A stretch of DNA of 64,000 bases, taken from NCBI GenBank assembly GCA_000002445.1, contig CH464492.1, forward strand, positions 1-64,000, read 5' to 3'. Of this stretch, positions 16,538 through 59,990 are shown piece by piece. Below the pieces are notes generated by a model that did not search any database, was not told where the DNA came from, and saw only the letters and a list, made by a program, of their open reading frames with translations. Position 1 is the stretch's first letter. Every line of letters begins with the position of its first letter. A program made the position numbers and the translations under genes. The stretch comes from Trypanosoma brucei (Eukaryota).

Positions 16538-18091
16538 ATGCAAGCCATTCAAGACTCAACAATTAAGATGTGCAAACAACTGATGCTCTTGCTGATCTTG
16601 TGTTCGATTCCGCCATCGGGAGCCAACGTCGGAGAAGCGGATAATTTAGCTGTTTTCGCAGCGGTTTGTGAGTTGTTCCAGATCGCTGAGGGGGAACTTC
16701 CTCCGGACGAACAGGTGACAGATTCAGCAAACGCCGTCCGCCAGCTCGAAGCACTCAACATGTCCGTAGCAGAGGACAAGTGGCGCCAGCAGTTCTACAA
16801 AGGCAACTACGAAAAGATATCCTGGCAGGAAGCCAAAGATGCAGGCCTTTCGCCACACGAAAGCTGGAAAACGAAATGGGAACGATGGCAGCAGGCGGCA
16901 CTCAGCACCAAACCGGAAGCCGAGCCCGGAAAAACCATAGCAGACCAAGGCTTCAATGAGTTAACGGGAATTTCCAAAAAAGCAGTCCAAGCAAAAGTAG
17001 CAGCGCTGCTGGCCAAAGTCGGACACCTGGAAGCCGAACGCGCCACAGCAGAACAAGAAATAATAAGCGCGAGCAACGCAGAGTTGAGCAAAAAACTAAA
17101 CAAAGCGTTATACGGAGTCGAAACTGGGAGAGGCGACTTCGGTAAAACAGCTGGAGCAACGGGGGCAGCGAAAACACTGGATGCGTGTAGCACGGCTGGA
17201 ACCATCGACAACCAACAACCACTAGCATATGTTATGATGTGCCTTTGTCTAGAAACAGGGTCGACCAAAACCGGCAAGATCTGTGCAAAAGACCACGCAC
17301 TAACCAAGGCATGGAACGATGCAAACCCAAAAGTCAAGCAAGCATTCGACGACATGCGCAACTTGTGCCCGAGCGGGAAAAAGACGCCAATAACAGCATA
17401 CCAGATACGGAAAGCACTCTCAGCAGTACAGGCCTTCATACGAATGCACAGCGGCACCGGCTATCTAGGAGGGTTCAACAGCGGGAGCTGCAACGGGAAT
17501 GTCGCTAACGGCATATGCGTAAAATACGACCACAAAATAACAGCCGGCGCAAACGGTTTCACAGAACTAACGTACGCCGCCAACATGCTGGAAGCGGCTA
17601 GTCTGCTAGAAAACAGGCAACACGCGGTTCAAAAAGCCAACCAACTGGCACACGCGATCAACGCAGAAGCTTCAGCAGCGTGGCTAATATCGAAAGAAGT
17701 GGAAGCACTGCAGAAACTGGAAAGGGCAGCGGCAGCACAGGTGCCAACCACCAGCCAGGCACCAGGGACAAGCAAGCAACCATCGGTGGAGGAACAAAAT
17801 AAATGCAAAAATGCTACCAATAAAACAGCGGAAGGATGCTCGGCTATCAACTGCGACTTCGACAACGAAAAAAAGGAATGCAAACCTAAAGATGGGGAAG
17901 GACAGACAAGCACAGCAACAGGAGAGCAAGCTACAGGAGCAGATGCCAAAAAGTGCTCCGATAAGAAAAAACAAGAAGACTGTAAAGATGGCTGCAAATG
18001 GGATGGAAAAGAATGCAAAGATTCTTCTATTCTAGCAAACAAACAATTCGCCCTAATGCTTTCTGCTGAATTTGTGGCCTTGCTGTTTTAA
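16538..18091 (+). CDS. VSG: Variant surface glycoprotein, intact (b-type N-domain), canonical GPI signal
   Basis: Signal peptide MCKQLMLLLILCSIPPSGANVG (the true start is probably the Met at 16568). Contains …YLGGFNSGSCNGNVANGICVKYD…. C-terminus …CKDGCKWDGKECKDSSILANKQFALMLSAEFVALLF*. Perfect 16-mer in the 3'UTR. Confidence 0.88.
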   Translation: MQAIQDSTIKMCKQLMLLLILCSIPPSGANVGEADNLAVFAAVCELFQIAEGELPPDEQVTDSANAVRQLEALNMSVAEDKWRQQFYKGNYEKISWQEAKDAGLSPHESWKTKWERWQQAALSTKPEAEPGKTIADQGFNELTGISKKAVQAKVAALLAKVGHLEAERATAEQEIISASNAELSKKLNKALYGVETGRGDFGKTAGATGAAKTLDACSTAGTIDNQQPLAYVMMCLCLETGSTKTGKICAKDHALTKAWNDANPKVKQAFDDMRNLCPSGKKTPITAYQIRKALSAVQAFIRMHSGTGYLGGFNSGSCNGNVANGICVKYDHKITAGANGFTELTYAANMLEAASLLENRQHAVQKANQLAHAINAEASAAWLISKEVEALQKLERAAAAQVPTTSQAPGTSKQPSVEEQNKCKNATNKTAEGCSAINCDFDNEKKECKPKDGEGQTSTATGEQATGADAKKCSDKKKQEDCKDGCKWDGKECKDSSILANKQFALMLSAEFVALLF

Positions 18092-18163: not shown

Positions 18164-18289
18164 CTAAATTCGGCTGAGTTTTTTTCGTTGGTTGTAAAAA
18201 ATCTGATTCTGTAAATTTTTTTTGTTTTCTGGCACCTAAAAGAATTTCTCTCTTTTTTTTCCTGTTTTTTTTTGAGTTTTTTTTTGTGA

Positions 18290-18345
18290 AGGGAGGTAGG
18301 GGGTTAGGGTTAGTGTTATGGTTAGCGTTAGGGTTAGGGTTTTAA
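18290..18345 (+). repeat. Interstitial telomere-like hexamer tract (degenerate TTAGGG x about 7)
   Basis: GGTAGGGGGTTAGGGTTAGTGTTATGGTTAGCGTTAGGGTTAGGGTT, about 200 bp downstream of the VSG stop. Confidence 0.85.
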
Positions 18346-18789
18346 TTTACCTTTTTTGGCTTTTTTATAATTTGCCATTTTTTTCTTTGCGATGCAGCGG
18401 CTTTTTTTTATATTATGGTTGGCGCTTATTCAGAGAGTAGGCAACTTCGTCTTCATATTTTTCACCTATTTATTTTATTTCCACATTGTTACAATACCAC
18501 TTTTTAATCTTTTGTGAATTTCCGGTTTGCATTTCGGGTTGCGCCCGGCTTAAATAAATATATATATATATGTTTTTAACGCTGGCGCGTGGCAGTGTAG
18601 CTGCGCGAAACGAATTGCTTTTGAAGCATAAATAATCTAAAAAGAGAGTTATTCTAAACTAGGAGATTATTACGATCAGCAGTTAAGGAACGACTTCCAG
18701 ATCTGCCCCTGCCAGCAGACGTCTAAAGCCGCTCAACTGTCATGGCCGCATTTTCAATCCCAAATGAAACGAGAATAAAAAGTGCACAC

Positions 18790-19001
18790 TTAGTGAGGAT
18801 GGCAAAAAACAAGTAGAAAAAGAAGCAGCAAAAGAAGGAGGGAAAGATTAGAAGAAAGATAAGTGTACCAGACATGGCACTAATCTACAAGCTTTTGAAA
18901 AGGACAGCAACTGTAAATGGGAAGATAACAAGTGCAAGAATTCCAGTTTTCTTGTCAATAAAAAATTTGCTGTGATGGCTGCTGCTTTTGTGGATTTGTA
19001 A
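18790..19001 (+). pseudogene. VSG C-terminal fragment only (C-domain plus GPI signal)
   Basis: …[49 protein letters not shown]. No N-domain lies upstream. Confidence 0.7.
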
Positions 19002-19224
19002 AATTTTAGGTATTTTTTTTATAAATATGTTGTTTTCTAAGAAAATTACTTTTGTAATAATTTGCTAATATTTTCTAAACGTTGATGTATTTCAACACTT
19101 TATGATTGATATGTGCGACTTTTAGTAACATGTGTATGAACGTGGCATATTGGTGCAAAGTAGTAGGATAATAGTGTGTGAAAAATGTGTGCTATTCTAA
19201 TTTAGTTTAGTTTAGTTTTTAAAA

Positions 19225-28915: not shown

Positions 28916-30097
28916 GGTGGTTGTACAAACCTAAAAGTTAAGAAAAATAGAATCACTTCAAACAATTGCATAGGCAAATGTGAATACGAGAGGGAGTGAG
29001 CAATGGAAGGGGAGAGGAAAGGAAATCGTGTATTTGCAGTGCCAAACTCAAAAACTTCGACAGTCATAGACTTACACATTGGGATAAAGATAATAAAGAA
29101 AAGGGAGTGGCATGGTTCAGTGTATATATTGATGAGATAGACATTTTCTCTGCAATGAAAGTAAAAGAAAGCTAAAAGAAAGGAAATAGTTTCGAGGGAA
29201 ATAAATGGATGAGCTAGACCACGGTGCAAACGCACATGATACAGGAGGCGCAAACATCGATATCAATTATTTTGCTTACAAGTAGAGAGATGGACATGCA
29301 GAGAAGAAAATAGTTGGACCGTAGTTTTTAGTCTGATGATGCAACACAACGTAAAATGTTGAGAACAGGGGGCGGCAATTGTTGAATGGATGAGGGATAT
29401 TTAGTGTCGCAAGGAATAAAGAAGTGGGACACAGGGAAAGAGAGAGTAGAGCCTATTTTGAACTTAATACGTAAACTAATTGAATACTATCAGCTATTAT
29501 CACTGGAGGATTTCCGTTTTCATTCGTATGTAAAACCTTGGCAAAACAACCACACCAGAGCTTTATAGGGGGAAAGTGTATCAAGGCAATTTTGTAGAAA
29601 AGAAAAAACCACAACCTTCATACACGAACCTAATTGTGCTGCAATACTTTTTTTTTTAAATTTTCTTCGTGCCTTCGTGAGAGTTTCCCCCCACTGGCGC
29701 GGCCATCAGCCATCACCGTAGAGCCCTGAGATGCTATCGGTCTGGCAACTGTGGTAGAGTCTCCCTTTTTTTATTCAGCCTAACACACTCTCTATAATTT
29801 TTGTTGTAGCTCCACAGTTGAACGGAATACAGCAGATGGGGCGAGAAGCCCCCCACCCCAGACTCTCCCAAAGATGTCAATTAGCAATCCTTTTGTTTTG
29901 ATTTTTGTTATTCGTTTATTATTCTCTCCCCCTCTTTCTGTTTGTGTTGCTTGTTGATTGCATACCTCCTCTGTCTCTGAGGGTGTCTGGACTATTCCTG
30001 CGTCCGGTGCTTTTCCTGCTAGCTACACTCTCGGCAATAAGGGGGGAAGTTGCAGAAGGGAGAGTGGGTTGTATGACTGTTACATTAGGTGAGGACT

Positions 30098-31636: not shown

Positions 31637-32400
31637 CCTGCTCGGTGTGCTTCTGCATACCGGAAGCCATTTCAGCAGCCGTTGCAGTCCTATCTCTAAT
31701 GCTACGCATTCCGCTCTGTAACTGCATGAGAGTTCCCCTGCTCCGGTCTTGGGTGCACGAATCAGCGCTCGCTTCTATAGAGCAGGGCAGCTGCCTCGGA
31801 CTTCTCACCGAGGGACACGGATCCATCAGTCCACAATTCGTAGTGCTCTCGCCGCGGTGGCTCCTTCCCCCTCCGTGCAAAATGCCGTTCAATCCACTTT
31901 TCGGAAGCCTCTCTTTTGGCATCGTCAGGGTCATCAGCGCACGCAGGCTTTATCTGCGTGTGAAATAGTGATCGGCAGCTGTGGCGGAGCGTCGATGTCT
32001 CTAGTAGGTGCTCGCGTGGCTCAATGCGGAGGTGAAGGTAAGACCGCATGGTGCGGGAATGTAGGGCTTTGACTAGATGTTTGCTGTGGTATACTTCCTC
32101 AGCACTGCGCCGCAAACATCCGCCTCGTGACTCACACATCAGCATGAATTTCATGCTGCGCACAAGAGTGGTCGTCTTGAGTGGCAGGAGGTTTGCCTCC
32201 AGCAGAGAGTCCTCTTTGCGCGTCCCATGGGGTATGCCAGCTATGATGCAACTGGCTTTGTGTTGTGCTGCTGAAAGGAGGTCCCGACTTCGTTCCGAAG
32301 CGTCCCAGTACCATACCTCAATGCCATACATGGTGTGTGCCTGTACGAGTGCTAGATAAAGAGCTCTCAACACTTGTCGTCTTGGCCCCCATGTAGAAGC

Positions 32401-34065: not shown

Positions 34066-35491
34066 TGTGCAATTCCTTCACAGTGTCACATCAGGGCTGG
34101 ACTCCCCGTGGTGGCGTGCGTACCTGGTGCACTCACCAGTGTTGCAGACCAGAAACTGGTTGTCAATGCACCACTGTGTGAGGGTTTCACCCTTGGTATT
34201 TGGTGAGCTCGCGCGATCCCATGCCAACGCGTGTACGTTAGCGTCTGCACCGATGAGCTGGACACCGTCAGTCGACAGAAGCGTATCTATGTCATTTTCC
34301 GTGAAGTTGTGTTTTGGTGGGATGTATGCCGACGTGACGGTCAGCGCCTTTCCATGTGTAAGGTGAATTGTTCCATGCACTTGTTCAATGCGACCAACAA
34401 CGGCCATACCGGTCTCGACTGGTAGGTCTTCCCTCACTAGTATTGATACACCACCTCCTTTGCAGTTACGAGCTATTCCGTGATGTTGGTAGCCATCAAC
34501 GCTAAAGCAAGCGGCTTCTCAAGGCGTCATCCTTGTCTCGCTCAACAGACAAAAGGCGATCCGCTCATCAACAAGGGTTTTGTGGAGTGCTAATCTCTTT
34601 CCTTGAGATAGCCCGGCGCAGTTCCACTGCATCCCGCGCAACGACAGGCCGGGATTCTCTTCCACATCACCGGACAGCAGCATCTTAGTGCGGATGATAT
34701 TGCTGATGGCACGCTGGCACGTGCCTAGGGACCGACAAATGAAAAAGTGTGTGTCCCAGCAAGACGCTGCTGATCCCTGTGCTGTATGATGCCGTAGCCG
34801 GAGCAAAGCAGTGTTCCCCATGAAAGGAACGCTGCTGGATCTTGGCTTCCCCCGATGATACGGGGTACTGGACCCTGGCACCACGTTGAGGTGGCCGGCA
34901 TCGCCAGGGAAGAAAAGAAGTCAGTTGTTACAGATGCCAAGTTTAATTTCTTCGATGAGTTTCTCGTTTCAATTATAAAACATGCCACACCTTATCTAAA
35001 TCCAAAATTTCAACATTTATGATCCTTAGTGGCCTCTATTAACTTAACTAATGTAGCTACCCCATTTGACCTGTACACTAATATTATTATCCCCATTGCT
35101 GTCCTCCGAATCATTTACATGAGTTAACAAGAGTAGCCATATTCATATTTGCTGTGAAACTGCGCATGTACCATATCTTTTCTTTTCCTCACCATTTCCA
35201 CTTATTTACTGCCTTTTTGCCGTGGCTCTGGTATATCCTATCATTATCATTATCCTTTCTATTATAACCCTAAATAACATCAATACAGAAAAAAAACTAA
35301 AGTAGTACAGGACTACTTTTTCATTTTTTCACTCTGCTAATTGTTCCCATAGTTCACCATGATACATATTACTTGAGTTATAAGATTTAAAAAAATCTCA
35401 ATATTTTCATTAATTTGCGTAGTTTTATCAAAAAGTATTTAAAAATATCAATCTTTAAAAAATTCTGTCAAAGTAGAAAATATTTCGTAAA

Positions 35492-37040
35492 TTATATATG
35501 ATTAAGAAAAATTCTTATAGTGCTATAATACTTAAAATGATACAAACCCATAAAAGCGGAAGATATCAGAGGCAATTTCTTACTGACGAGAAACCTGGAA
35601 TATTTGCAATCTTTTCCTTCCCATTGGCATTTATCATTTTCGCATGCGGTTTTATTGTCTTTGTGTTGTTTGCATTGTTGCCGCCTGGCTTTGTCTACTG
35701 CTGGTTTCGCTCCTTCTGGCGGGCCAGCCGCCGCTGTCTGCTTCCCTGACTGCGGTATGTGCATGTAAGCTATGTTATCTGCTAGTTTGCGCTTGGCTTC
35801 TACTGCCTCCTTGATGCTTTCTAACCTCATTACTGCACTCTCGTGTTCGTGCAGTCTGTCCGCTACCGTTTTTAAATTCTTGAGCCAGCTGATCTGCTCT
35901 GTTGGGTCCCCTGTCGTCGTTGTTATTGTTGTGTACTTGACGCACATGCCCTGGCCTGTTACGCCCGAGCAGCCTGTTCCGAGGTAAGCACCGAGGTAAG
36001 CGTCGCTGGCGGTTTTTCTCACGAGGTGAGCGACGTCACTTATTCTTCTTGTTAGTTCGGCGGCCGTTAGTTTAATTTGTGTATTTGTGTTGCACAGTTG
36101 TTTCACGTCTTTCATGGCGTCATCACTTGGGTTTGAGTTGGCTGTCCACGTGTTTGTTAGTGCGGCGGAGCCGCTGCACGCTTTGCCTGCGTTGGAGCTG
36201 TTGCTGCCGTCGGTTGCACACACACATATCAGCGTTGCAAATGCCGTATTTGCTTTTGCCGCACCCCCGTCGCCTGCGCAATTCGCACTCCTCGAGCCAC
36301 CTGGGTTTGCCGAAAACGCTTTGTACGTTGTGCCCGTGAATCCTGGCTCTTCATCCTGCCCATACACCGCCTTGTTTATCGCCTTGTGAAGTTCATCGTC
36401 GCTTATTAATTTTTTTCCTTTCGCCAGCTGCTTTGCTGACTTGTCGAGGGCCATCGCCTCCGCCGCCAGCGCTTGAATGTAAGGCCGGAGATGGTCTCGT
36501 GCTCTGCTGCTTGGCGAGTTCAGCTTGTACTTTTTTTCAGTGTTTGTTCGTTTGCTGTCTTCCAAGAGATTTTCAGCGGCTTTGGCCCACACTGCCCATT
36601 GCTGCGTCCAGTCTGTCCCTTCCGGTAGTTTTTTTTTTGTTTAGGTCTCTCGGTTTGTCCCGGTTTTCGTCGTCTCTGAATTCATTTATCCATTCTTCTG
36701 TTGAGGCTGACATGTTGAGCTCGAATATTTCCTGCAAGTCGCTTCCTTCTGCAGGTTGGGTCTTCGCTACTGTCGCACGTTTGCCAGCTAACTCAATCAA
36801 TGCGCATAGTGATGCCCTTTCCCGCTGGTTTGCGTCGGCCATGATGTTTCCGCGTGCTTGTCGGCGTAAGTACAGCGTTAAAAATATTGGAAAAAATACT
36901 TTTCCGAGCATGGTAGACTGCGTTTGTGCCTTGCTTAGTGGATTGGAGGGCTACAGAGTGCATTTGAAAAAGTATGTCCGTTGTGGCTGCTTCCTCCAGA
37001 TCCCACAAGTGTATCAGGTACTTGTCCTTATTTAGCGTTG
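35492..37040 (-). pseudogene. VSG pseudogene on minus strand (frameshifts in N-domain; C-terminus reads through the GPI signal)
   Basis: ORF 35492..36592(-) contains …YLGAYLGTGCSGVTGQGMCVKYT… (b-type N-domain) and C-terminal …CKQHKDNKTACENDKCQWEGKDCKYSRFLVSKKLPLISSAFMGLY…. N-terminal pieces lie in ORFs 36573..36911(-) and 36793..37008(-). Confidence 0.7.
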
Positions 37041-42389: not shown

Positions 42390-43852
42390 GGCGAATTTTT
42401 GTTTACTAGAATAGAAGAATCTTTGCAAGTTTCGCCCTACAACTTACAATCTGGAGATTTGCAGTCATCCTTTTCCTTATCTTTGCATTTCTCCTCTTTC
42501 TTTTCTTCTGCTTTCATTCCCTCTTTGAGTTTGCATTTTCCTTCTTTGTGTTCTCAATCTGGGTCTGCTGTTCATTTACTTTGTTCTGTGTCTTCTTTGC
42601 ATTTTTCTGTAGTTTTTGATTCTGTAGTGGTCTTAGGTTTAGCTTGTTGTTGTCTGCTGTTTTCTTTCCAGAAAACAACTGCTATTGCTTCACCAAAATT
42701 TGCAGTTTTAGAGACTCCTACTATGTCTGGGTTGCCGTTTGTGGAGCCCACATTGCACGTTATTTTGTCATTTTTTAAGGGTTCAATGAACTCCTTGTTG
42801 ATATCGCTTGTATCTGGTCCGTATACTTCCGTTATTGCGGCTACCCAGTCCCCGTCTATTGCCGTTAGAGGTATCGATCCCTTCGTGAGAAGGAATGCTA
42901 TCTTCGCTGCCGGTGACCCTTTGGCTATTTGCTTGCGCGTCAGACTTGCTGCTTTCGCCTCTGGTTTTATCAGGACTTTTTTGGCTTCGCACACCTTGTT
43001 TAACAGTGTCTTTTCTGAAATTACTAGTTTAAGCGGCTGGTCGTTGACGACGCAGCTCGTGTCGTCCGGTCCTGTCTTTCCTAGTGCTTGTTTGGCTGGC
43101 TGCGTTATTGCCGCCGGGGATTGACTAGGCTTTGCTCCTACACCGTGAGTCACTGACCCTTTCGTTTCCGCGTTTGCTCCACAGTATCCGGCTTGCTTAG
43201 CGCCGGCTGTACTGACGCTCCGGCGCTGCTCTGCATGTGGATGTCAAATGAAAGCTGCATGGGTTTGAGTTCACTGTTTGGCGTTAGTGCTAGGTGCTTT
43301 AGTTCCGCTATTTCAGTGCTGANNNNNNNNNNNNNNNNNNNNNNNNNNNNNNNNNNNNNNNNNNNNNNNNNNNNNNNNNNNNNNNNNNNNNNNNNNNNNN
43401 NNNNNNNNNNNNNNNNNNNNNNTCGACTTGGGGCGACCATTGAGCAGCTGGCCCAGTACGCCGTTCCGTTTTTGCAGCGCTTCAATTGCAGCCTCTATTG
43501 TGCTTGCTTTTTCTTTCAAGACTTCCTGCTGTTTGATTGCCGTCGTCGCTGCTATTGCGCTGAGGGCTGTGTACAGCAGCTTCCTCTTACTGTCGTGTGT
43601 TGCTGTGGCCGCGAGAAAAAACATGCGCGTCTCAGTGTTGAGGTCCGAAAGACGCTGTTGGGATTCTTGGACATTTATCCTTAAGTGTTCGGCCAATTTC
43701 TTGTTAAAATAGATTTCGGCGCATGTGGTTTTGACCGCTGCTAGGCTTCCGGGGTCTGCTGGTTGCGCAGTTGCGAGGGTATCTAGAAGAAACACCACCA
43801 TTATAGCAGCGATTCTTCTCTTTGGTTCGTGCATCTGCATTCGCCTCCTCAT
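42390..43852 (-). pseudogene. VSG on minus strand spanning an assembly gap; stop inside the [12 protein letters not shown] motif
   Basis: N-terminal ORF 43313..43852(-) MRRRMQMHEPKRRIAAIMVVFLLDTLATAQPADPG… (signal peptide) runs into the N gap 43323-43422. ORF 42572..43153(-) is the C-domain. The terminal frame reads …[21 protein letters not shown]…. Confidence 0.65.
43323..43422. other. Assembly gap (N run)
   Basis: Run of n characters. Confidence 1.
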
Positions 43853-44449: not shown

Positions 44450-44549
44450 NNNNNNNNNNNNNNNNNNNNNNNNNNNNNNNNNNNNNNNNNNNNNNNNNNN
44501 NNNNNNNNNNNNNNNNNNNNNNNNNNNNNNNNNNNNNNNNNNNNNNNNN
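44450..44549. other. Assembly gap (N run)
   Basis: Run of n characters. Confidence 1.
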
Positions 44550-48009: not shown

Positions 48010-48175
48010 TGAACATTAATTAGCGTTATAATAATAATAATAATAAGAGAGTGTTGTGAGTGTGTGTATACAAATATTATAATAATAATATTAATAATAA
48101 TAGTAATAATGATAATGATAATAGGAGAGTGTTGTGAGTGTGCATAAACTGATATTATAATGAGAGCAGTAATAA
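48010..48175 (+). repeat. 70-bp repeat units (about 2)
   Basis: TTAGCGTTATAATAATAATAATAAGAGAGTGTTGTGAGTGTGTGTATACAAATATTATAATAATAATA…GATAATAGGAGAGTGTTGTGAGTGTGCATAAACTGATATTATAATGAGAG. Confidence 0.8.
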
Positions 48176-48999
48176 TACTGAATGGATGGGAAAGATGAAG
48201 GCACTGAAAATAATAAAAAAAGTGCAATGAGAATATGTTAGTGAAATCACAGTGAGTAAGTGAGGGAGCAATAAACACACAAAGAATATTATTATTAAAG
48301 GAAGTGCTAAAAACTGAGAAATAAATGTAGATGGAATAAGTGGAATTTCAAATATAACTATGACGATGGGCATAAAATATACAAAGAGATGTTGGAGAGA
48401 CAGAATACGGTATATAGGTATAATTGAATTGGTAGGTTATCCACAGCTATGGAGGTAGCAGAATAAAATGAACGAAAATACAGAAAACAACTGGATTTTG
48501 TAACCAGAAAAAAAGTACAATGACTAAAGAGGTGATTTGCTTCACATTTGACACATAAATATATAAATAATCGTGCAGAGATAGCGGTAGCATCAAGAAC
48601 AGTAGTTTATATATCTAACCTTATAGGAATTTTAAAATGAAATTAGGTGGAAGGAGTATTTGTCACAAGAAAATAATAAAATTACTGGCATATCTCAACA
48701 CATAAGTTAAACTATTTACTGCAATTGCTATAAAAATGCATAAAGAGGAACTTTGAATGCAGGAAAGAGCTGATTTAACGACTGCGCTGTGAATCATCAA
48801 GCTAATGTGTATGGCTAAAACTATAGATTCGTGCTCAAAGATAGGTTGCAGACACCGAGTATACTCTATTCAACAGATTCATCATAACAATATCGTGGGA
48901 TTACTTATATGAACATATTAGTCGTACTGCTCACTTTTTCCCTTACGGTTTCCACGTTATTCTTTTAACAGTCTCCAAATTTAAAGGTATGTTAGGGAA

Positions 49000-50281: not shown

Positions 50282-51883
50282 GTGGAAAAGCAGTTAGCAA
50301 GTCGACAGTTGCGTATTCGGATGACCCCAACACCTAAAGCAACGGCGGAACTACAGCGCATCTTGATTCTATACATCGGTGTGCTGTTCTTTGGCCTCAA
50401 CCTAGTAGAGGCCGCCACCGACGCCAACGCCGCACAACACCGCGTGATGTGTCTTCTCACCGCACTAGCCAACACCCCCATCAAGCAAGCAGAAATAACA
50501 GGCAGTGGCGGTTCCGCAAGAGAGACAATCAGTGCGTTGAACGTAACAACGAGCTCAAGCGAGTGGCAAAAAATCTTTGACACCAGTCTCAGCCGGGAAG
50601 CAGGCACAAACTTCCCAGAGACGCTCAAAGACAAGCCGTACGCAGACATCTGGAAAGCGAACTGGGCGTCATGGTGGAAAGCAGCAAAGCATGCCAAAAA
50701 CACTAACATTGGCCAGCCAACACACGACCTATACAAGCCCATCTCATCAGCAATACAAAAAGCAGCCGCAAACAAGAAGATACGGCAACTAGCACTACAA
50801 GCAGAAACCTTAGGTCGAATGTACGACGAAGCGGCGCAACAGGCAACAAGTACCCAAAAGCAACTAGCGCAAACAAAATTAACAGCAGCGCTGTACGGAG
50901 GCGACGGCAGCAAAGCAACACCAGGAACAGACCACACCCGCAAAGCATTTACAACCTGGGACGCCGCATGCACAGGAGACGAAAATGGCAAATCAATCGT
51001 AGGCGACTTTTTCTGCCTTTGTGCCCCAAAAGACGGGACAACGAAAGAATGTGCTGATGGTTACGCCCCGACGCGCTGGGACGCCACCATAGCAGACCCA
51101 GCGGCGGAGTGGAAAAAGCTACAGACGTCTTGCCCAACTGCTAAGCTCAGCAGCGCCAAAGAGCATGATATAAGAATGGCCATAGGAGCGTTCCTACAAG
51201 CCTTGACTACCAGAACTCAAGGCGGCACAACAAAAACTTACCTAGGGAGCAGCGACACAGGCGCATGCGACGGGACAAGCAGCAAGCTATGCGTCGATTA
51301 CACCGGCTACTTCAGCAAGCAAGCAGGTAAAACCTACAAAGATATACCATGGCTCAAATCCCTCGAAGATGCGGTTACGGCCCTAGAAAACATGCACAAG
51401 CAGGAAGAAAAAGCAAATAACCTCGACGCGCAGCTGGCAAACCTGCTGAAACAAGCCAATCTTATCTACGCCGCTGCATTAAACGGCGACTTGATGACCG
51501 AGACAGCGGTCAAAGCCGAAGTTGTTCCTGAAGGGAACCCAAGACAAAATGTAAACTGCGCGCAGCATGACAACAACAAAACTTGCGTTTCTCCATGCAA
51601 GTGGGAATCTAAAGGCGACAAAGGAACATGCAAATTAGATGAAAGCAAAGTTACAACTCAGACAAATACAGAAAGAACAGGAACAGGAGATGGCGCAGCA
51701 AAACATGGAGTAAATTGCTCTAGCCATGCAACCAAGGAGGCATGCGAGGGATTCCAAGGAACTTCAGTCCCAGGCAAAAAAGCTGTTTGTGGCTGGATTG
51801 AAGGCAAATGTCAGGATTCCAGTTTTCTTGTAAACAAAAAATTCGCCCTCATGGTTTCTGCATTTGTGGCCATGCTTTTCTAA
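50282..51883 (+). CDS. VSG: Variant surface glycoprotein, intact (b-type), canonical GPI signal; probable true start at the Met at 50324
   Basis: MTPTPKATAELQRILILYIGVLFFGLNLVEAATDANAA signal peptide. Contains …YLGSSDTGACDGTSSKLCVDYTG…. C-terminus …[31 protein letters not shown]. Exact 16-mer downstream. Confidence 0.88.
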   Translation: MEKQLASRQLRIRMTPTPKATAELQRILILYIGVLFFGLNLVEAATDANAAQHRVMCLLTALANTPIKQAEITGSGGSARETISALNVTTSSSEWQKIFDTSLSREAGTNFPETLKDKPYADIWKANWASWWKAAKHAKNTNIGQPTHDLYKPISSAIQKAAANKKIRQLALQAETLGRMYDEAAQQATSTQKQLAQTKLTAALYGGDGSKATPGTDHTRKAFTTWDAACTGDENGKSIVGDFFCLCAPKDGTTKECADGYAPTRWDATIADPAAEWKKLQTSCPTAKLSSAKEHDIRMAIGAFLQALTTRTQGGTTKTYLGSSDTGACDGTSSKLCVDYTGYFSKQAGKTYKDIPWLKSLEDAVTALENMHKQEEKANNLDAQLANLLKQANLIYAAALNGDLMTETAVKAEVVPEGNPRQNVNCAQHDNNKTCVSPCKWESKGDKGTCKLDESKVTTQTNTERTGTGDGAAKHGVNCSSHATKEACEGFQGTSVPGKKAVCGWIEGKCQDSSFLVNKKFALMVSAFVAMLF

Positions 51884-51919
51884 AAGAATTTCCCTTCTTT
51901 TTAAAATAATTTTGCTGTT

Positions 51920-51935
51920 TGATATATTTTAACAC
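51920..51935 (+). promoter_or_regulatory. Conserved VSG 3'UTR 16-mer
   Basis: Exact TGATATATTTTAACAC about 35 nt after the stop codon. Confidence 0.8.
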
Positions 51936-52045
51936 GTAAGTTACCTGGAAAAGTAATTAAATTTTTTGTCCCGGCTCCGCGTATAAAAATTTTTGCCGAC
52001 TAAAAATTTCTCCTTTTTTCTGTTGTTTTTTGTTTAAAAAACAAA

Positions 52046-52094
52046 AAGAAGGTAGGAGGAATGAAGGTAGGTTGGAGTTAGGGTTAGGGTTATT
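52046..52094 (+). repeat. Interstitial telomere-like tract (GGTAGG/TTAGGG degenerate hexamers)
   Basis: AGGTAGGAGGAATGAAGGTAGGTTGGAGTTAGGGTTAGGGTTA. Confidence 0.8.
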
Positions 52095-52185
52095 TTTTCT
52101 CTTAGCAATAAGTGTTTTTACCAGCACTTAACCGTAACGACTTTAGCTCTTTTTTTTAATCATGCGAGTCGCTCTTTTTTAATGC

Positions 52186-52240
52186 AACCCTAACCCTTAT
52201 TCTTCCACTCCCCCCCCCAACGCCCAACTCCGCTTAACTT
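52186..52240 (+). repeat. Inverted C-strand telomere-like tract (CCCTAA x2 plus C-rich run), head-to-head with 52046-52094
   Basis: AACCCTAACCCTTATTCTTCCACTCCCCCCCCCAACGCCCAACTCC. Confidence 0.7.
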
Positions 52241-52664
52241 TTTCACCTGCACCTTCGCCCGTATTTGTAACTTTTTTCTGCTTCTGTGGATTTCAGCTCT
52301 GCATTTTGAGCTGCGCGCGGTATCAATTTTTTTTAAAGCTGGAGCGCGGCCTATAACACCGCACGCAATTCTTTTACGCCGCCTCGCTGCAGTATCGGTG
52401 CGCCAAACAATTTTTGTTTTCAAAAAGAAAATAAAGGAAGGGGAAAATATTTGTGAGATGGCAATTATAAAGAGCAGAAATTAAGGAGCGATTAGACAAT
52501 CTGCTGCTGGCACCCAACGGCCAAAGACGATAAACTGCCAGAGGTACGTTTTTAACCCCTAAGCCGTCGAGGATAAAATGTGCACATTGAGTGAGAGAAA
52601 TCAAGAAGATAGAACAAAAAGAAGCGCGAACAGATGGAGACAAAAAAGAGAACTATTATTTTTT

Positions 52665-55600
52665 TTGAAATTTTCTTCGTGACTTCGTGAGAGTTTCTCC
52701 CCACTGGCGAGTCCATCAGCCATAACCGTAGAGCCATGAGATGCTATCGGTCTGGCGACTGTGGCAGAGTCTCCCTTTTTTATTCAGCCTAACACACCCT
52801 CTATAATTTTTTGTTGTAGCTCCGCAGTTGGACGGAATACAGCAGATGGAGCAGAAAGCCCCCCACCCCTGACTCTCCAAAAGATGTCAATTAACAGTCC
52901 TTTTGTTTTGATTTTTGTTATTCGTTTATTATTCTCTCCTCTTTCTCTTTCTGTTTTTGTTGCTTGTTGACAGCATACCCTCTCTGTCTCTGAGGGTGTC
53001 TGGACTATTCCTGCGTCCGGTGCTTTTCCTGCTGGCTCCACACTCGGCAATAAGGGGGGAAGCTGCAGAATGGAGAGTGGGTTGTATGACTGTTACATTA
53101 GGTGAGGACTTCACCTGCGGCCGGCTCCGTTCAACCGCAATAAGAAACTGCGCCAGCCTTTTAGAGAAACATATATCCTGCACACACACACTCACCTTCT
53201 ACCGCAAACCTAACACGTAACTCCTTCAAACCGGGACAGCTCATCAAGTGCAGCGACGTTTCTTCGCAGTCGCCGCGTTGGCTGGTAACAGCGCACTCTA
53301 CCTTCATACCTTGCATCTTCTTTTGATGTAGGGTGAGGCCAGTTTTGCTAGCACACTGCCTTCCGCATGTCGGGCATACCAACATGGATGTGTTTGTATG
53401 CGGGGAATCAGTGGCAAGCAATTTTGTGCTTTTGCTGCATTTAAGCTCGACTCCCTCACCTTTGTGGAAAGCCTTACAGTGTCGGATGAGGGAGTCCCTG
53501 CAACTGAGCATTTTTTGGCACACACCACACTGCACCTCGCCCTTCCCCGGGACGTCAACGTTTCCCTCACGGGCACGCTTACGAGGGAATTGCACCACCA
53601 CCACGGTACCGTCCTCCGTCACTATGCTCTTATGTTTGAATTTCTTGTGTAGTGACAGGGAAGAACGTGTACCGAAGCTCGCCTCGCACAGGTCACATTG
53701 AAACGGCAGCTTCCGTGTATCCTGAGAGGCTGGCGCTGCTGGGGCTCTACCATCTCCTTGCACTGAGTCCTCGTTCTCTCTCCCCCTTTTCACGCGGCAA
53801 CTACCGCTGCCTATGCCATGTATTGTTCTAAGGTGGTGTAATAGTCGGCCTAGCACTGCGAATATGGAGGCACAGATGGTACAATGAAGCACCTGCAGTC
53901 TCATCGGGACTCGTGTGCTCGATGGTAGAGGAACGATCGCCACCGCTGGAGGGGGCTCCGGGGGGATGTCCACTGCAGGTGTTGCATCGCCGTATTTGAT
54001 CCTCCGGAGGGCATCAGCTCGCACAAAGCCATGTTTGTTTACCATATGCGTTACAGCACTCGAGCGGCATTGGTATGTGGCATCACATTCCGTATATTAG
54101 GTCGGTTCGGAGGTTCTCTGAAGAGTGCGTGTCGCAACAGTTGGGGATGTTTGTATTGTGGGTCCTATTGCTTCATGTTTCGGGTTACACCATCGGCACT
54201 GTGGAGGCACACTCGGGTTGATATTTCGCAACATCCATCCATAGTGTCTTGAAGAACCAACCCGAAAGCGTGCCAGTGCCGTTTCTTCTTCCCTCGTCAG
54301 TTCTTCATTATGTTTTGTTGGAAAGTGGTTGCCCGTGATACCAAACCTATGAGTGTTCTCATGGACTTCTTCCGACCTAAGCACTCGCTTCGCATAAGCA
54401 ATGATGTCGGGGACCCATGTGTCTCGCAACTGTGGTAAATCAGCGGCCTTTTTGGCCATTTCATCGCAAACCTCATTCCGTTTCACGCCACAATGGCCAA
54501 ACAAAAATTGCAGTCGGATACGTATCTTCCTTCTCTGAACTTGAAGCAGAAGCCTCCATAGTCGTCTCAGAATTGGGTCCGTTACGGCTAGGGGGCCTGT
54601 CTGCAATGCTGTTAACATTGACAGCGAGTCAGAGAAGATGGACAACCTGCTCGGTGTGCTTCTGTATGCCGGAACCCATTTCAGCAGCCGTTGCAGTCCT
54701 ATCTCTAATGCTACGCATTCCGCTCTGTAACTTCATGAGAGTTCCCCTGCTCCGGTCTTGGGTGCGCAAATCAGCGTGTTGTTTCTATAGAGCAGGGCAG
54801 CTGCTCCGAACTTCTCACCGAGGGACAAAGATCCATCAGTCCACAATTCGTAGTGCTCTCGTCGCGGTGGCTCCTTCCCCCTCCGTGCAAAATGCCGTTC
54901 AATCCACTTTTCGGAAGCCTCCCTTTTGACATTGTTAGAGTCATCAGCGCACACAGGCTTTATCTGCGTGTGAAATAGCGGTCGGCAGCTGTGGCGGAGC
55001 GTCGATGTCTCTAGTGGGTTTTCGCGTGGCTCAATGCGGAGGTGAAGGTAGGACCGCATGATGCGGGAATGTGTGGCTCTGACTGGGTGTTTGCTGTGAT
55101 ATGCTTCCTCAGCACTGCGCCGCAAACATCCGCCTCGTGACTCACACATCAGCATGAATTTCATGCTGCGCACAAGAGTGGTCGTCTTGAGTGGCAGGAG
55201 GTTTGCTTCCAGCAGACAGTCCTCTTTGCTCGTCCCATGTGGTATGCCAGCTATGATGCGACTGACCTTGTGTTGCGCTGCTGCAAGGAGGTCGCGACTT
55301 CGTTCCGAAGCGTCCCAGTACCATACCTCAATGCCATACATGGTGTGTGCCTGTACGAGTGCTAGATAAAAAGCTCTCAGTACTTGTCGTCTTGGCCCCC
55401 ATGTAGAAGCTGAGATGGCTGCTATCTGCAGTAGTAGGAAGTCCATCTTGCGTCTCGTTTCTGCCGCATGTGTTGCCATCCCTTGCAGACACTGGAATGT
55501 TACTCCTAGAAGCTTCGGTGTCCTGTCAGCTCCTATTCTTTCGCCGTCCATTGTAATGTAAGGGGGTGGCGCTCTATACACCCGAAGAGTGTGCACTTCG

Positions 55601-57916
55601 TTTTCGCTACGTTGACAGACATGAAGTACTCTTTTGACCACTGTAACACCACGTTTAGGCCGCATTACAGCGTGTGGTTGATGACATCCCTCTCTGTGTG
55701 CCTCGCAAGTAGCGTCAGGTCATCTGCAAAGAATCCGTGCTGCAGTAACGGCACTTCTGCAAGGCGCTGGCTCAACGAGTTCATGACAATAATGAACATG
55801 ATTGGGCCAAGGACAGTTCCTTGTGGCACTCCTCGCTCAAATGTTCTGCTGCTGGAAAGCTTCTCCTTGAATCTCACTCTGCCAGTTCGGTTACTCAGAA
55901 ATGATACACACCACTTCACAATGTGGGGTGATACCTTCATTCTGTGCATTTCCCTCGCAATTTTGTCGTGGTCTACTGTATCGAATGCCTTCTCTTAGTC
56001 GACGAATACAGCACCTGTACGATATTGGTGCGTGGGACGGCAGAGGGCAGCGCGGACGTGCAGGAGGTGTTCGAGCGTTGAGCATCCGGGGCGAAAGCCT
56101 GATTGCTGCGGCGTCAGCTGGGACTCAACAGTGTCTCTAAGTCTCGCGGCAATTATTCGCTCCATGACTTTGCAGAGACAGCTCGTGAGCGTCACTGGCC
56201 TGTAAGAATCGAGGTCCTCCGCCTTTTTTCCGGCCTTCAGGATGGGGATGATAACACCAGTCTTCCATGCAGACGGCACGACTCCCGTTCGTAGGCTCTC
56301 ATTGAATAGCCTCAGAACAACATTCAGCGCTGTTCTACCGAGATGTTGCAGTGCCTTGTTGTATAAGCAATCAGGTCCGGCTGCGGATCCACTCGGTAGC
56401 AGTTTGATCGATCTCCGTAGTTCAGCCATCGTGATGGGACTGAACTCACTCGCTATCGTCTTTATGTGTGCCGGTGGGTGTGAGTCGGGGTGCCTTCTTG
56501 CGCAAGACGAGTACAGTTTAATGAACCTCTCAGCTTGACGGTAGTCCGTGATGGCCGCGTTATCAACAAGCACAGCCGGTGTGGTTAGTGGTCGTGGCGC
56601 ATATACCTTCTTGACAATGTGCCAACTGCAGCGGTCTGACACCGCAAGTCTGGAGCATAGCGTGCTCCATCTCTTCTTTGTGGTACGGTCCAGAATCTGC
56701 TTACGCGTGGCTACCAACTTTTCTCTTATGTGGAAAGGTCCTCATCCAGCGATCTCTTCATCGAGTTTCGCGAGCTCAGGTGTCCAATGTGGTGGCGTTA
56801 CTCTGCAGCCACGGGGGACGGAGACATTCGTCGCAGTGCGGATGGCGGAGCTCAATTTCTGTTCCAGAGTGTTGACATTCTTCTCTCTACCAATTTTCCT
56901 GCAGAGCTCGTGAACCTTGAGACGGAAATTCCTCCAGTTAGCTTTTAGCCATGCGTACATGGGCTTTTGAAGCCGCGGGCAACTCAGTGCATCTGTGTCG
57001 TCTCCAACGATATCGTCGAAAAATATGTTATGGTGATCGCTATCGGGAGAATACAGCGATGTCCACGTGTACACTGTGCAATTCCTTGACAGTGTCACAT
57101 CAGGGGTGGACTCCTCGTGGTGGCGCGTGTACCTGGTGCACTCACCAGTGTTACATACCAGAAACTGGTTGTCAATGCACCACTGTGTGAGGGTTTCACC
57201 CTTGGTATTTGGTGGGCTCGCGCGATCCCATGCCAACGCGTGTGCGTTAGCGTCTGCACCGATGAGCTTGGCACCGTCAGTTGTCAGAAGCGTATCTAGG
57301 TCAGTTGCCGTGAAGGTGTGTTTTGGTGGGATGTATGCCGACGTGACAGTCAGCGCCGTTCCACGTGCAAGGTGAATTGTTGCATGCACTTGTTCAATGC
57401 GACCAACAACGGTCATACCAGTCTCGACTAGCAGGTTCTCCATCACTAGTATTGATACACCACCTCCTTTGCAGTTACGAGCTATTCTGTGATGTCGGTA
57501 GCCAGCAACGCTAAAGCAAACCACCTCTCCAGGCGTCATCCTTGTCTCGCTCAACAGACAAAAGACAATCCGCTCATCAACAAGGGTTTTGTGGAGTGCT
57601 AATCTCTTTTCTTGAGATAGCCCAGCGCAGTTCCACTGCATCCCGCGCAACGACAGGCCGGGATTCTCTTCCACATCACCGGACAGCAGCATGTTAGTGC
57701 GGATGATATTGCTGATGGCACGCTGGCACATGCCCAGGGACCGACAAATGAAAAACGGTGTCCCAGCAAGACGCTGCTGATCCCTGTGCTGTATAATGCC
57801 TTGGCCGGAGCACAGCATTGTTCCCCATGAAAGGAACGTTGGTGGCTCTTGGCTTCCCCCGATGATACGGGGTACTGGACCCTGGCACCACGTTGATGTT
57901 GCCGGCATCGCCAGGG
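52665..57916 (-). mobile_element. ingi: Full-length ingi retrotransposon (about 5.25 kb), ORF fragmented by frameshifts
   Basis: 3' end (T-run at 52655-52665 plus the RIME 3' half). ORFs 53161..54045(-) ZnF, 54097..54645(-) RNaseH, 54733..55665(-), 55665..55949(-) and 55995..56717(-) RT. ORF 56742..57956(-) is APE-like, contains …LLSGDVEENPGLSLRGMQWNCAGLSQEKRLALHKTLVDE… and reads through the element 5' end. 5' terminus at about 57916. Confidence 0.95.
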
Positions 57917-58455: not shown

Positions 58456-59990
58456 ATGCCACCGAAGTTAGAGATGCAGAGCAAGAAACTACGTAGACTA
58501 GCTATAGACCTAACACTAGCGCTAATTGCAGTGACTGGGACAGCAATAGGCTCGGCACCAGACGACAGTGCATATTTCTCTGCACTTTCTGCAGTTTACA
58601 ACCTTGCCGAAGTCAAAGACAAAATCGCGCCAGAGACGGCTTTCCCAGAAGCAACTACGATTCTAGAAGAGGCAAGCAACCTAAACCTATCAACAGCAAA
58701 CGACGGTTATTTTGATGCTGCGGATGACATTTATCACCAAGGCGGCAAAGTCAAAGATCAAGAAGGGCTTAAGCAATGGTAAGAAAAAAATAAAGCTATA
58801 GCGGACAAAGACCTGGCCGGCCAGAAGCCGTATCTAAGGTTGCCAGAACACAATGCACGGCACCGAGCAAACAAGAGAATTTACACGCTATTAAACAGGA
58901 GCGCGGAGCTGATAACGCAATATAACGCAGCTAAGCAAGCCTACAATGAGGCGAGAACAAATGCGATGAACAGCCTCACAGAAGCAGTCTATGGAAAAGG
59001 CAAAGTGGACTTCGACAAGGGCAGATTCAACAACGAAGCGGGCGCCGGGAGGGGTAAGGCATGCGGGGCGACGGCGCAGGGAGGAAACAATGTAGGAGCA
59101 GCGCTAGCCGACGCTTGTATTTGTCTTTGTACAGCTTCAGGAAACCCAGCGCAAAACGAGTGTGCGGACTCGCTGACTGGCCAGGTTGACGCAGCCGGCG
59201 ACAAAAGCGATCAAGCAAAGGCAGCATGGGACAACGTCAAAACAAAATGCAAATATATGCCGCAGCCACAGCCCAGCTAATGGCAAAGATCGACGCAAGC
59301 AACACGGACGCAACGCAAGCAACACGGACGCAACGCAAGCAAACGGGCGGTGAACTCTAGAAAAAACTAACACCGCAGCTTGCGCAGGCGTCCAGGCAAC
59401 ACCCACCATGTGCATAAACTTCAAACAACAGCTCGGCACAAGCGACGGAAAGCTACCATGGCTAGAAAAGCTACACGAAGCAGAAAACCAACTGATGACA
59501 GCCGCATGAAAAGAGAGCGAAGCAGCAGCTCTCAAGCAAACCCTTATGCAGCTAAATAATGACGCCCGGGCTTCTTACGTCGACGCACAACACGAAATTG
59601 AAAACCCACCAAAGCTTACGCAACTTCACCCACAATCCCCCGCCAAAACAACCAATGAAGAGGACTGTAAAAAACACAAATAAAGCGGCAAATGCGCTGA
59701 GCCGTGCCAAAGGGGTGACAATGCCACTGGTGCAAACAAAAAATGCTCATTAGATCCAAAAAAGCTGCAGATCAAGCAGCTCAGGTATAAAAAGAAACAT
59801 GAGAGCAACCTTCAAAGTATGCTGGACAAGATACCAAAGAGAAATGTGAAGGAGTCAAATGAACTCCAGCCCCAGGCAAAAAATATGTTTGTGGACGGAT
59901 AGAAGACAAGTGCAAAGATTACAGTTTTCTAGTAAATAAGAAATTTGCCCTGATTGTTGCTTCTGCTTTTGTGAGTTTGGTAGGACTCTA
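58456..59990 (+). pseudogene. VSG pseudogene (signal peptide present; multiple stops and frameshifts; GPI signal in a different frame)
   Basis: Signal-peptide region …LRRLAIDLTLALIAVTGTAIGSAPDDS…. ORF 58840..59280 contains …ACICLCTASGNPAQNECADSLTG…. Terminal …CKDYSFLVNKKFALIVASAFVSLVGL* at about 59900-59990. Contains a 20-bp tandem duplication at 59283-59345. Confidence 0.7.

What the first reader, a model, noticed from the sequence alone, without database searches (positions are those of the whole stretch)
51884..52420. Head-to-head telomere-like repeats (TTAGGG … CCCTAA) downstream of a second intact b-type VSG
The same 3' architecture occurs downstream of the intact VSG at 50282-51883: exact 16-mer, T-rich spacer, then GGTAGG/TTAGGG hexamers at 52046-52094. 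This 3' flank resembles that of the VSG at 16538, although the coding sequences differ. Here an inverted (CCCTAA)2 plus C-rich tract follows at 52186-52240. The two tracts form a miniature head-to-head telomere junction about 90 bp apart. This could be the scar of a telomere-telomere fusion or a fold-back repair event. It could also be a conserved structured element of telomere-derived VSG cassettes. A full-length ingi sits about 400 bp further on.
Basis: seen in the sequence. Interest (0 to 1): 0.7.

Follow-up and report, generated by a model that had tools for sequence, protein, structure and literature searches.

The report
Telomere-repeat relic behind array VSG
Behind a silent trypanosome coat-protein (VSG) gene sits a short stub of chromosome-end repeats facing a still shorter inverted stub; this is most likely a decaying scar from when the gene lay at a chromosome end, not a working element, and only the inverted stub is unusual.

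Summary
The window is a Trypanosoma brucei TREU927 subtelomeric VSG array. An intact b-type VSG (50321-51883) is followed by an exact 16-mer and a G-strand tract at 52046-52094 that ends in TTAGGGTTAGGGTTA. After 94 nt comes AACCCTAACCCTTA plus a C-rich run (52186-52235). This is the only exact C-strand telomere 12-mer in the 64 kb, with a chance of about 4e-4.

The G tract is a known feature: 'TTAGGG-like repeats 3' of telomere-proximal VSGs' (Aline & Stuart 1989, cited in PMC3708902). It lies where 10 of 14 VSG 3' flanks carry a TAGGGTTA box.

Here the tract is not followed by 70-bp repeats. It is followed by about 370 bp of pyrimidine-rich spacer and an orphan VSG C-terminal-domain remnant, which an ingi cuts at 52659. 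The locus at 18092-19010 is a diverged paralogue of this junction but lacks the inverted tract.

Inverted symmetry is limited to 17 nt. There is no excess folding, no Rfam match, and no inverted VSG flank beyond the C tract. Fold-back repair, an assembly palindrome and a structured element are therefore not supported, and a simple telomere-telomere fusion is only weakly supported.

Best reading: an internalised telomere-type VSG flank with a local repair scar. Read support and other assemblies could not be checked. Interest is low to moderate.

The parts
48028..48177 (+). 70-bp repeats, the 5' boundary of this VSG cassette
   Evidence: TRF period 78, 1.9 copies
50321..51883 (+). Intact b-type VSG, 520 aa
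   Evidence: 100% identical to an NCBI TREU927 VSG with Pfam VSG_B and Trypan_glycop_C; translation
51884..51935 (+). VSG 3'UTR with the exact conserved 16-mer (51920-51935)
51936..52045 (+). Spacer with T runs between the 16-mer and the hexamers
   Evidence: 36% T; same length as in other VSG flanks (alignment A2)
52046..52094 (+). G-strand telomere-like tract, degenerate GGTAGG units then TTAGGGTTAGGGTTA. It is an expanded copy of the TAGGGTTA box found at this offset in most VSG 3' flanks.
52095..52185 (+). 94-nt non-telomeric, T-rich spacer between the two tracts. It contains one weak C-strand-like 12-mer, CTTAACCGTAAC, at 52127.
   Evidence: not significantly similar to the paralogue
52186..52235 (-). 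Inverted (C-strand on +) telomere-like tract: AACCCTAACCCTTA, then C-rich degenerate units (CCCAACGCCCAAC)
   Evidence: The only exact C-strand 12-mer in the window; inverted-repeat pairs I3 and I12; GC skew -0.8
52236..52460 (+). Pyrimidine-rich non-coding spacer. Block 52269-52320 is conserved with 18498-18548.
   Evidence: Smith-Waterman score 40 against 17.6 +/- 2.1 for shuffles; no Pfam signal in any frame
52461..52658 (+). Remnant of the start of a VSG C-terminal domain (orphan pseudogene fragment), truncated by the ingi
   Evidence: 67% DNA identity to 18666-18853, E 1e-10. The counterpart in the paralogue is a Trypan_glycop_C domain, E 4.7e-18 (tblastn).
52659..57916 (-). ingi retroelement, full length in size with degenerate ORFs, abutting and truncating the remnant
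   Evidence: 94.6% identical over 5.27 kb to 29649-34909. Pfam finds endonuclease-RT and zinc-finger domains in this copy; the RVT_1 hit is on the paralogous copy at 32401-34065.
16538..18091 (+). Paralogous locus: a second intact b-type VSG, 27% amino-acid identity to the first
18289..18342 (+). Paralogous G-strand tract, 6.8 hexamer units at 82% match. No inverted tract follows it.
18726..19016 (+). Paralogous orphan VSG C-terminal-domain remnant, followed by its own 16-mer-like 3'UTR (19083) and 70-bp repeats
   Evidence: tblastn E 4e-13; Pfam PF10659 E 4.7e-18

Best explanation
This is the 3' boundary of a silent VSG cassette that keeps a telomere-type flank. It is a relic of a time when the gene was the last gene before a chromosome end.

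Shown:
- The G-strand tract sits at the canonical place, about 130-160 nt after the 16-mer, where most VSG 3' flanks carry a TAGGGTTA box. Here the box is 2.5 perfect units plus degenerate units. In ordinary array cassettes it is about 1.5 units fused directly to the next cassette's 70-bp repeats.
- At this locus and its diverged paralogue at 18092-19010, the tract is followed by about 320-370 bp of pyrimidine-rich non-coding spacer and then an orphan VSG C-terminal-domain fragment. So both copies descend from one atypical junction.
- The inverted tract is telomere-like in sequence, occurs in only one of the two copies, and has no extended palindrome around it.

Inferred:
- An eroded chromosome end carrying a telomeric VSG was joined to, or extended from, DNA that began near the N-terminal/C-terminal domain border of another VSG. 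That internalised the old end, and the composite was later duplicated within the array.
- The inverted C-strand tract is a small repair scar. It is telomeric DNA laid down in reverse orientation when this junction, or a later break in this copy, was repaired. The likely route is microhomology-mediated joining, or capture of a telomeric fragment, because T. brucei has no NHEJ.

Current role: it is now neutral, decaying DNA. The only plausible present-day effect is extra 3' homology to expression-site telomere flanks, plus a few potential duplex TTAGGG binding sites. Neither was tested.
For: - Identity of the locus: the VSG is 100% identical to a TREU927 VSG.
- The tracts are real and non-random.
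- TAGGGTTA with at most 1 mismatch lies at +130 to +195 from the 16-mer in 10 of 14 VSG flanks, against a 2.2% background (P 2.6e-14). Alignment A2 shows it is positionally equivalent to the tracts at 52046 and 18289.
- Only these 2 of 9 flanks in the window lack downstream 70-bp repeats and carry multi-unit hexamers.
- Homology between the two loci lies on both sides of the hexamers: 3'UTR, hexamers, block 52269-52320, and 52461-52658 against 18660-18860.
- The downstream block is a VSG C-terminal domain.
[quoted passage not shown] The VSG-to-telomere distance is 200-1590 nt in expression sites (PMC2567434). T. brucei lacks NHEJ and has MMEJ (PMC8287324).
Against: - Only two copies of the junction were available, and no orthologous or 'empty' site could be examined.
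- The 150-175 nt directly after the hexamers is not significantly alignable between the copies. It is therefore unknown whether the inverted tract was ancestral and lost, or gained later.
- The spacer 52095-52460 matches nothing else I could search, so its source is unknown. It could itself be normal telomere-proximal flank rather than foreign DNA.
- No genuine telomeric VSG flank could be retrieved for comparison. TREU927 is not indexed, and the T. equiperdum contig L001 ends just before the tract.
- The proposed recombination role is pure inference.
Confidence: 0.55

Rival explanations
1. Scar of a true end-to-end fusion of two chromosome ends with critically short telomeres. The fusion would be MMEJ-mediated, since NHEJ is absent. 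The G tract belongs to the VSG-bearing end and the C tract to the other end.
For: - The orientation is G strand then C strand.
- In both tracts the perfect units face the centre and the degenerate units lie outward, as expected for two subtelomere-to-telomere gradients.
- There is a sharp GC-skew reversal.
- Chance is unlikely, about 4e-4.
Against: - 94 nt of non-telomeric T-rich DNA separates the tracts.
- Beyond the C tract there is no inverted VSG flank or reverse 16-mer. There is instead plus-strand pyrimidine-rich DNA and a plus-strand VSG C-terminal-domain remnant.
- The paralogous junction lacks the C tract.
- End fusions have not been documented in T. brucei (PMC8287324).
Confidence: 0.17
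2. The C-strand 12-mer is a chance product of a pyrimidine-rich flank, so there is no head-to-head feature at all.
For: - The whole flank from the stop codon to about 52420 is pyrimidine-biased on the plus strand.
- Only two units are present, and the second is imperfect.
- The finding was selected post hoc.
- The paralogue has nothing there.
Against: - It is the only exact C-strand 12-mer (any rotation) in 64 kb, and it lies 92 nt from one of only two G tracts.
- The analytic probability is about 3-4e-4, even with local base composition.
- It is followed by further CCCAAC-type units that pair with the G arm (I12).
Confidence: 0.12
3. Fold-back (hairpin) repair of a broken end, or a palindromic mis-assembly.
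For: The repeats are inverted and close together. The window contains three 100-N assembly gaps.
Against: - Complementarity is confined to 17 nt, with one further weak 16-nt arm pair. The sequences flanking the arms are unrelated.
- The nearest gap is more than 7 kb away.
- The DNA fold is no better than shuffles (z -0.85).
Confidence: 0.03
4. A conserved functional element of telomere-derived VSG cassettes that needs both orientations, such as a structured DNA/RNA or a protein-binding module.
For: Two VSGs with unrelated coding sequences (27% identity) share the flank architecture. Duplex TTAGGG is the TbTRF binding motif (established knowledge).
Against: - The inverted tract is absent from the second copy.
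- There is no significant folding.
- There is no credible Rfam match; the four matches are far below their gathering scores.
- The segment around the tract is the least conserved part of the flank.
Confidence: 0.03

Closest known systems
Conserved sequence organisation 3' of telomere-proximal VSG genes (Aline & Stuart 1989, Exp Parasitol 68:57; cited as 'TTAGGG-like repeats' in Hall et al. 2013, PMC3708902)
   Same: An intact VSG, the conserved 3'UTR 16-mer, and a short spacer followed by degenerate and then perfect TTAGGG units about 165 nt after the stop codon. This is near the lower end of the 200-1590 nt range reported for expression sites (PMC2567434).
   Different: The tract does not lead into a telomere. 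It is internal to an array, only about 45 nt long, and followed by unique DNA, an inverted tract, a VSG C-terminal-domain fragment and an ingi.
Short interstitial telomeric sequences (ITS) of vertebrate genomes, inserted during double-strand-break repair (PMC7215372, PMC6410037)
   Same: A few telomeric units at a non-terminal site, flanked by unique sequence and decaying by point mutation. The proposed origin is as a repair by-product.
   Different: Here the G tract occupies a fixed, family-wide position at a gene-cassette boundary rather than a random break site. An opposite-strand tract lies 94 nt away. The insertion could not be shown against an empty orthologous site.
Head-to-head telomere fusion junctions (for example the human 2q13 ancestral fusion, or telomere-spanning fusions in cancer genomes, PMC11293586)
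   Same: G-strand repeats face C-strand repeats, with degenerate units outward.
   Different: The tracts do not abut. Each is only about 2 perfect units long. No second subtelomere is recognisable, and the organism lacks the NHEJ pathway that usually makes such fusions (PMC8287324).
Canonical array VSG cassette (70-bp repeats - VSG - 3' flank - next 70-bp repeats)
   Same: 70-bp repeats lie upstream (48028-48177). The VSG and 16-mer are present, and the telomere-like box is at the same offset as in 10 of 14 flanks.
   Different: No 70-bp repeats follow the box. The next VSG-derived sequence is an orphan C-terminal-domain fragment.

Membership tests
Telomere-proximal-type VSG 3' flank (Aline & Stuart organisation) | Lies directly downstream of a complete VSG ORF with the conserved 16-mer in the 3'UTR | tested here: met
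   VSG 50321-51883 is intact; exact 16-mer at 51920
Telomere-proximal-type VSG 3' flank (Aline & Stuart organisation) | TTAGGG-like hexamer repeats within a few hundred nt of the VSG | tested here: met
   Tract at 52046-52094, about 165 nt after the stop codon. Reported range in expression sites is 200-1590 nt (PMC2567434).
Telomere-proximal-type VSG 3' flank (Aline & Stuart organisation) | Repeats continue into a terminal (TTAGGG)n telomere | tested here: not met
   The tract ends at 52094. It is followed by unique DNA, an ingi and further VSG (pseudo)genes to 64000.
Short interstitial telomeric sequence (ITS) | At least 2 tandem telomeric units at a non-terminal site, flanked by non-telomeric DNA | tested here: met
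Short interstitial telomeric sequence (ITS) | Insertion relative to an ITS-less orthologous site | not testable with these tools
   No orthologous locus could be retrieved. TREU927 is not indexed, and no close orthologue exists in the accessible T. equiperdum assemblies.
Head-to-head telomere-telomere fusion junction | G-strand tract followed by C-strand tract on the same strand | tested here: met
   (I3)
Head-to-head telomere-telomere fusion junction | The tracts abut, or are separated only by telomere-derived sequence | tested here: not met
   The 94-nt spacer contains only one weak C-like 12-mer (2 mismatches)
Head-to-head telomere-telomere fusion junction | Inverted subtelomeric sequence of a second chromosome end beyond the C tract | tested here: not met
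   No reverse-strand 16-mer or VSG flank. A plus-strand C-terminal-domain remnant follows. A non-VSG chromosome end cannot be excluded.
Fold-back inversion / palindromic artefact | Extended inverted symmetry around a centre | tested here: not met
   The longest relevant arms are 17 nt. The reverse complement of the C-tract region matches the G tract only over the 12-nt core.
Structured nucleic-acid element | Folding energy better than shuffles, conservation in paralogues, or a match to a known RNA family | tested here: not met
   z scores -0.85, +0.81 and -0.31. No Rfam match near a gathering score. The C tract is absent from the paralogue.
Canonical array VSG cassette boundary | 70-bp repeats begin about 150-250 nt after the 16-mer | tested here: not met
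   No 70-bp repeat between 51936 and 52658, unlike 7 other flanks in the window
Canonical array VSG cassette boundary | TAGGGTTA box at +130 to +195 from the 16-mer (a feature defined here) | tested here: met
   Box at +159 here; 10 of 14 flanks have it, P 2.6e-14

The most novel reading that the evidence does not exclude
VSG arrays may grow by terminal accretion. Each time a chromosome end erodes to one or a few TTAGGG units, a new [70-bp repeat - VSG - telomere] segment is copied onto it through TTA/TAA microhomology. Every cassette boundary would then keep a telomere stub, the TAGGGTTA box. This locus would preserve an atypical accretion event in which the eroded end was joined to another telomere-bearing DNA end. 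That would make it a natural record of MMEJ-type end-to-end joining in an organism without NHEJ.
Probability: 0.15. Interest if true: 0.6.

Novelty: new member of a known kind. Interest (0 to 1): 0.25.

Why it matters
On its own this is a small, probably neutral scar in the reference genome of T. brucei.

It matters mainly as a marker of history. It suggests that some silent array VSGs are former chromosome-end genes. Together with the TAGGGTTA box seen at most cassette boundaries, it hints at how the VSG archive was assembled.

If the inverted tract really records a join between two chromosome ends, it would bear on an open question stated in PMC8287324: whether MMEJ can cause chromosome end fusions in a parasite that lacks NHEJ.

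A retained telomere-type 3' flank could also influence how readily an array VSG is copied into an expression site. That idea is untested.

Tried and rejected
1. Retrieving the same locus or other TREU927 copies. The look-up of encoding contigs found nothing for the window VSGs, P0001 or P0010. Only T. equiperdum OVI and IVM-t1 contigs were reachable (L001-L005). None of their VSG flanks carries a multi-unit hexamer tract. L001 has a 3'UTR 87% identical to locus 1, but the contig ends just before the tract.

2. A third protein search with the C-terminal domain alone returned nothing. That search was wasted.

3. ORFs in the spacer. None is conserved between the two loci, and no Pfam signal appears in any frame apart from the C-terminal-domain remnant.

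4. The idea that the spacer is a decayed VSG N-terminal domain. The only support is a weak tblastn hit (E 0.059), not confirmed by Pfam. Rejected.

5. The idea that the C tract is a small inversion of a G-like segment seen in locus 1 (TTATGGTTGGCG). The alignment is not better than shuffles (p 0.27). Rejected.

6. The idea that the convergent strand switch between 19 kb and 35 kb is itself a telomere-telomere fusion. The facing minus-strand VSG at 35426-36911 has an ordinary array-type flank. Rejected.

7. ingi target-site duplication. None is evident, and the DNA after the ingi does not continue the remnant.

8. Literature searches for interstitial or inverted telomere repeats in T. brucei VSG arrays found no description. 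Marcello & Barry 2007 and Cross 2014 are not held.

Full report
**What the window is**

The VSG at 50321-51883 is 100% identical to an annotated variant surface glycoprotein of Trypanosoma brucei brucei TREU927, on a 286-kb contig. tblastn with VSG proteins maps thirteen VSG genes or fragments:
- plus strand at 1-19 kb;
- minus strand at 35-46 kb;
- plus strand again at 47-64 kb.

ingi retroelements fill the convergent gap. There are three 100-N assembly gaps, the nearest at 44450-44549. The finding therefore lies in a silent subtelomeric VSG array.

**Checking the observation**

- the exact 16-mer TGATATATTTTAACAC at 51920;
- a G-strand tract at 52046-52094, with degenerate GGTAGG units followed by TTAGGGTTAGGGTTA;
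- 94 nt further on, AACCCTAACCCTTA followed by a C-rich run with CCCAAC-type units, to about 52235.

GC skew swings from +0.8 to -0.8 across the pair.

A scan with all six rotations of the telomere 12-mer shows that an exact C-strand match occurs once in the 64 kb, at 52186. Matches with at most 1 mismatch occur only at 52185-52188. Shuffles give 0.19 matches per window for the 12-mer with at most 1 mismatch. My analytic estimate for an exact C-strand 12-mer within +/-300 bp of either G tract is about 3-4e-4, using window-wide or local base composition. This is post hoc, but clearly non-random.

Minor corrections:
- the VSG starts at ATG 50321;
- the second C unit is CCCTTA;
- the spacer is only 36% T;
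- the ingi is at 52659-57916 on the minus strand, full length in size but with broken ORFs.

**The G-strand tract is a known, family-wide feature**

Hall et al. [quoted passage not shown] Hertz-Fowler et al. 2008 (PMC2567434) give 200-1590 nt between the VSG and the telomere repeats in expression sites.

In this window only two of nine 16-mer-bearing flanks have multi-unit hexamers, at 18289-18342 and 52046-52094. The other seven run into 70-bp repeats.

When the flanks are compared, the array-type flanks also carry a telomere-like box, (T)TAGGGTTA, at the same offset. It abuts the TAA-rich start of the next 70-bp repeat directly, for example cggTTAGGGTTAtaataataat at 7900. Across the window and the T. 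equiperdum loci, 10 of 14 flanks have TAGGGTTA with at most 1 mismatch at +130 to +195 from the 16-mer. The background is 2.2% (binomial P 2.6e-14; alignment A2).

The tract in the finding is therefore an expanded copy of a box that marks VSG cassette boundaries in general. I did not find this box described in the literature I could search (for example). That is not proof that it is new.

**What follows the tract**

The similarity to the flank of the VSG at 16538 extends well beyond the hexamers. Smith-Waterman scores against shuffles show:
- significant: the 3'UTR, the hexamers, a block at 52269-52320 / 18498-18548, and 52461-52658 / 18660-18860 (also BLAST 67%, E 1e-10);
- not significant: the 150-175 nt directly after the hexamers, which include the inverted tract.

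The last block is a VSG C-terminal domain. In locus 1, 18726-19016 hits VSG proteins (tblastn E 4e-13) and Pfam Trypan_glycop_C (E 4.7e-18). It is followed by its own 16-mer-like 3'UTR at 19083 and by 70-bp repeats.

In locus 2 the homologous remnant is cut by the ingi at 52659. The DNA beyond the ingi does not continue the remnant, and no target-site duplication is evident. The ingi is therefore probably also a rearrangement breakpoint.

The two intact VSGs are only 27% identical. The two loci are best read as old paralogues of a single atypical junction: intact VSG, telomere-type flank, 320-370 bp of pyrimidine-rich spacer, then an orphan C-terminal domain.

- Fold-back repair or assembly palindrome. 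Inverted symmetry is limited to the telomere-like core: 17-nt arms, plus a weaker 16-nt pair whose 75% complementarity is no better than many other pairs. The reverse complement of the C-tract region matches the G tract only over 12 nt. Not supported.
- Structured element. DNA folding z-scores are -0.85, +0.81 and -0.31. There is no Rfam match near a gathering score. The inverted tract is absent from the paralogue. Not supported.
- Telomere-telomere fusion. The orientation, and the outward-degenerate / inward-perfect gradient of both tracts, fit. However, the tracts are separated by 94 nt of non-telomeric DNA, with only one weak C-like 12-mer. Beyond the C tract there is no inverted VSG flank or 16-mer, only plus-strand pyrimidine-rich DNA and a plus-strand C-terminal-domain remnant. 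T. brucei also lacks NHEJ, and whether MMEJ can fuse its chromosome ends is unknown (PMC8287324). A simple fusion is at most weakly supported.
- Small inversion relative to locus 1. Tested and not supported.

**Best explanation (confidence about 0.55)**

The VSG carries a telomere-type 3' flank that has been internalised. An eroded VSG-bearing chromosome end was joined to, or extended from, DNA starting near the N-terminal/C-terminal domain border of another VSG, and the composite was later duplicated in the array. The inverted C-strand tract is a telomere-derived repair scar present in only one copy. Whether it dates from the original junction or from a later break in this copy cannot be decided with two copies. 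It is most likely neutral and decaying.

What is shown:
- the tracts themselves;
- their position relative to the family-wide box;
- the shared junction and the C-terminal-domain remnant;
- the absence of a palindrome, of structure and of conservation for the inverted tract.

What is inferred:
- the telomeric past of the gene;
- the joining mechanism;
- any present effect on recombination or TRF binding.

**Limits**

No reads, no second TREU927 assembly and no genuine telomeric VSG flank could be examined. The source of the spacer at 52095-52460 is unknown.

**Verdict**

This is a further example of a known kind of sequence: telomere-type VSG flank and interstitial telomeric relic. The inverted stub is a single unexplained oddity. 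Interest is low to moderate (0.25). The more interesting by-product is the TAGGGTTA box at cassette boundaries, which deserves a genome-wide check.

Noticed in passing
window 7898-7908, 14927-14935, 19232-19240, 35268 (minus strand), 5257-5265; L003 about 889; L004 about 8192: A telomere-like box, (T)TAGGGTTA, lies 130-195 nt after the 16-mer in 10 of 14 VSG 3' flanks (background 2.2%, P 2.6e-14). In array-type flanks it directly abuts the TAA-rich start of the next cassette's 70-bp repeats. This suggests that every cassette boundary keeps a telomere stub. I did not find it described in the papers I could search.
   Followed up: partly
window 18726-19016 (and its homologue 52461-52658): An orphan VSG C-terminal-domain pseudogene fragment (Pfam Trypan_glycop_C, E 4.7e-18) with its own 16-mer-like 3'UTR at 19083. 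It sits about 400 bp downstream of the hexamer tract of the preceding intact VSG.
   Followed up: yes
window 52659-57916: This ingi has no evident target-site duplication. The sequence to its right (57917 onward) does not continue the C-terminal-domain remnant it interrupts. The element probably marks a recombination or deletion breakpoint rather than a simple insertion.
   Followed up: partly
window 19-47 kb: The VSG orientation switches twice. The switch is convergent between about 19 kb and 35 kb, a region filled with ingi copies or fragments (21092-21310, 26996-27786, 29649-34909). It is divergent near 46 kb. The minus-strand VSG facing the convergent region (35426-36911) has an ordinary array-type flank, so this is not a telomere-to-telomere join.
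   Followed up: partly
window 27772, 27787-27886, 43323-43422, 44450-44549: One single N and three 100-N assembly gaps. This part of the contig is unfinished, but the nearest gap is more than 7 kb from the finding.
   Followed up: no
L001 3141-3289 (T. equiperdum OVI contig CZPT02001353.1): The 3'UTR of a T. equiperdum VSG is 87% identical to that of the window VSG at 16538. The contig ends exactly where the T-rich tract and hexamers would begin. This may be an assembly break at telomere-like repeats.
   Followed up: no
window 16538-18091: This intact VSG has no identical entry in the protein collection. Its best match is EATRO1125 VSG 1125.186 at 91% identity. The VSG at 50321 has 68% and 62% relatives in other T. 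brucei VSG collections; the 68% one is from EATRO1125. Both VSG lineages are therefore shared between strains.
   Followed up: no
window 59290-59345: A short tandem duplication (cgcaagcaacacggacgcaa, about 2.5 copies) lies inside the VSG pseudogene at 58498-59988.
   Followed up: no
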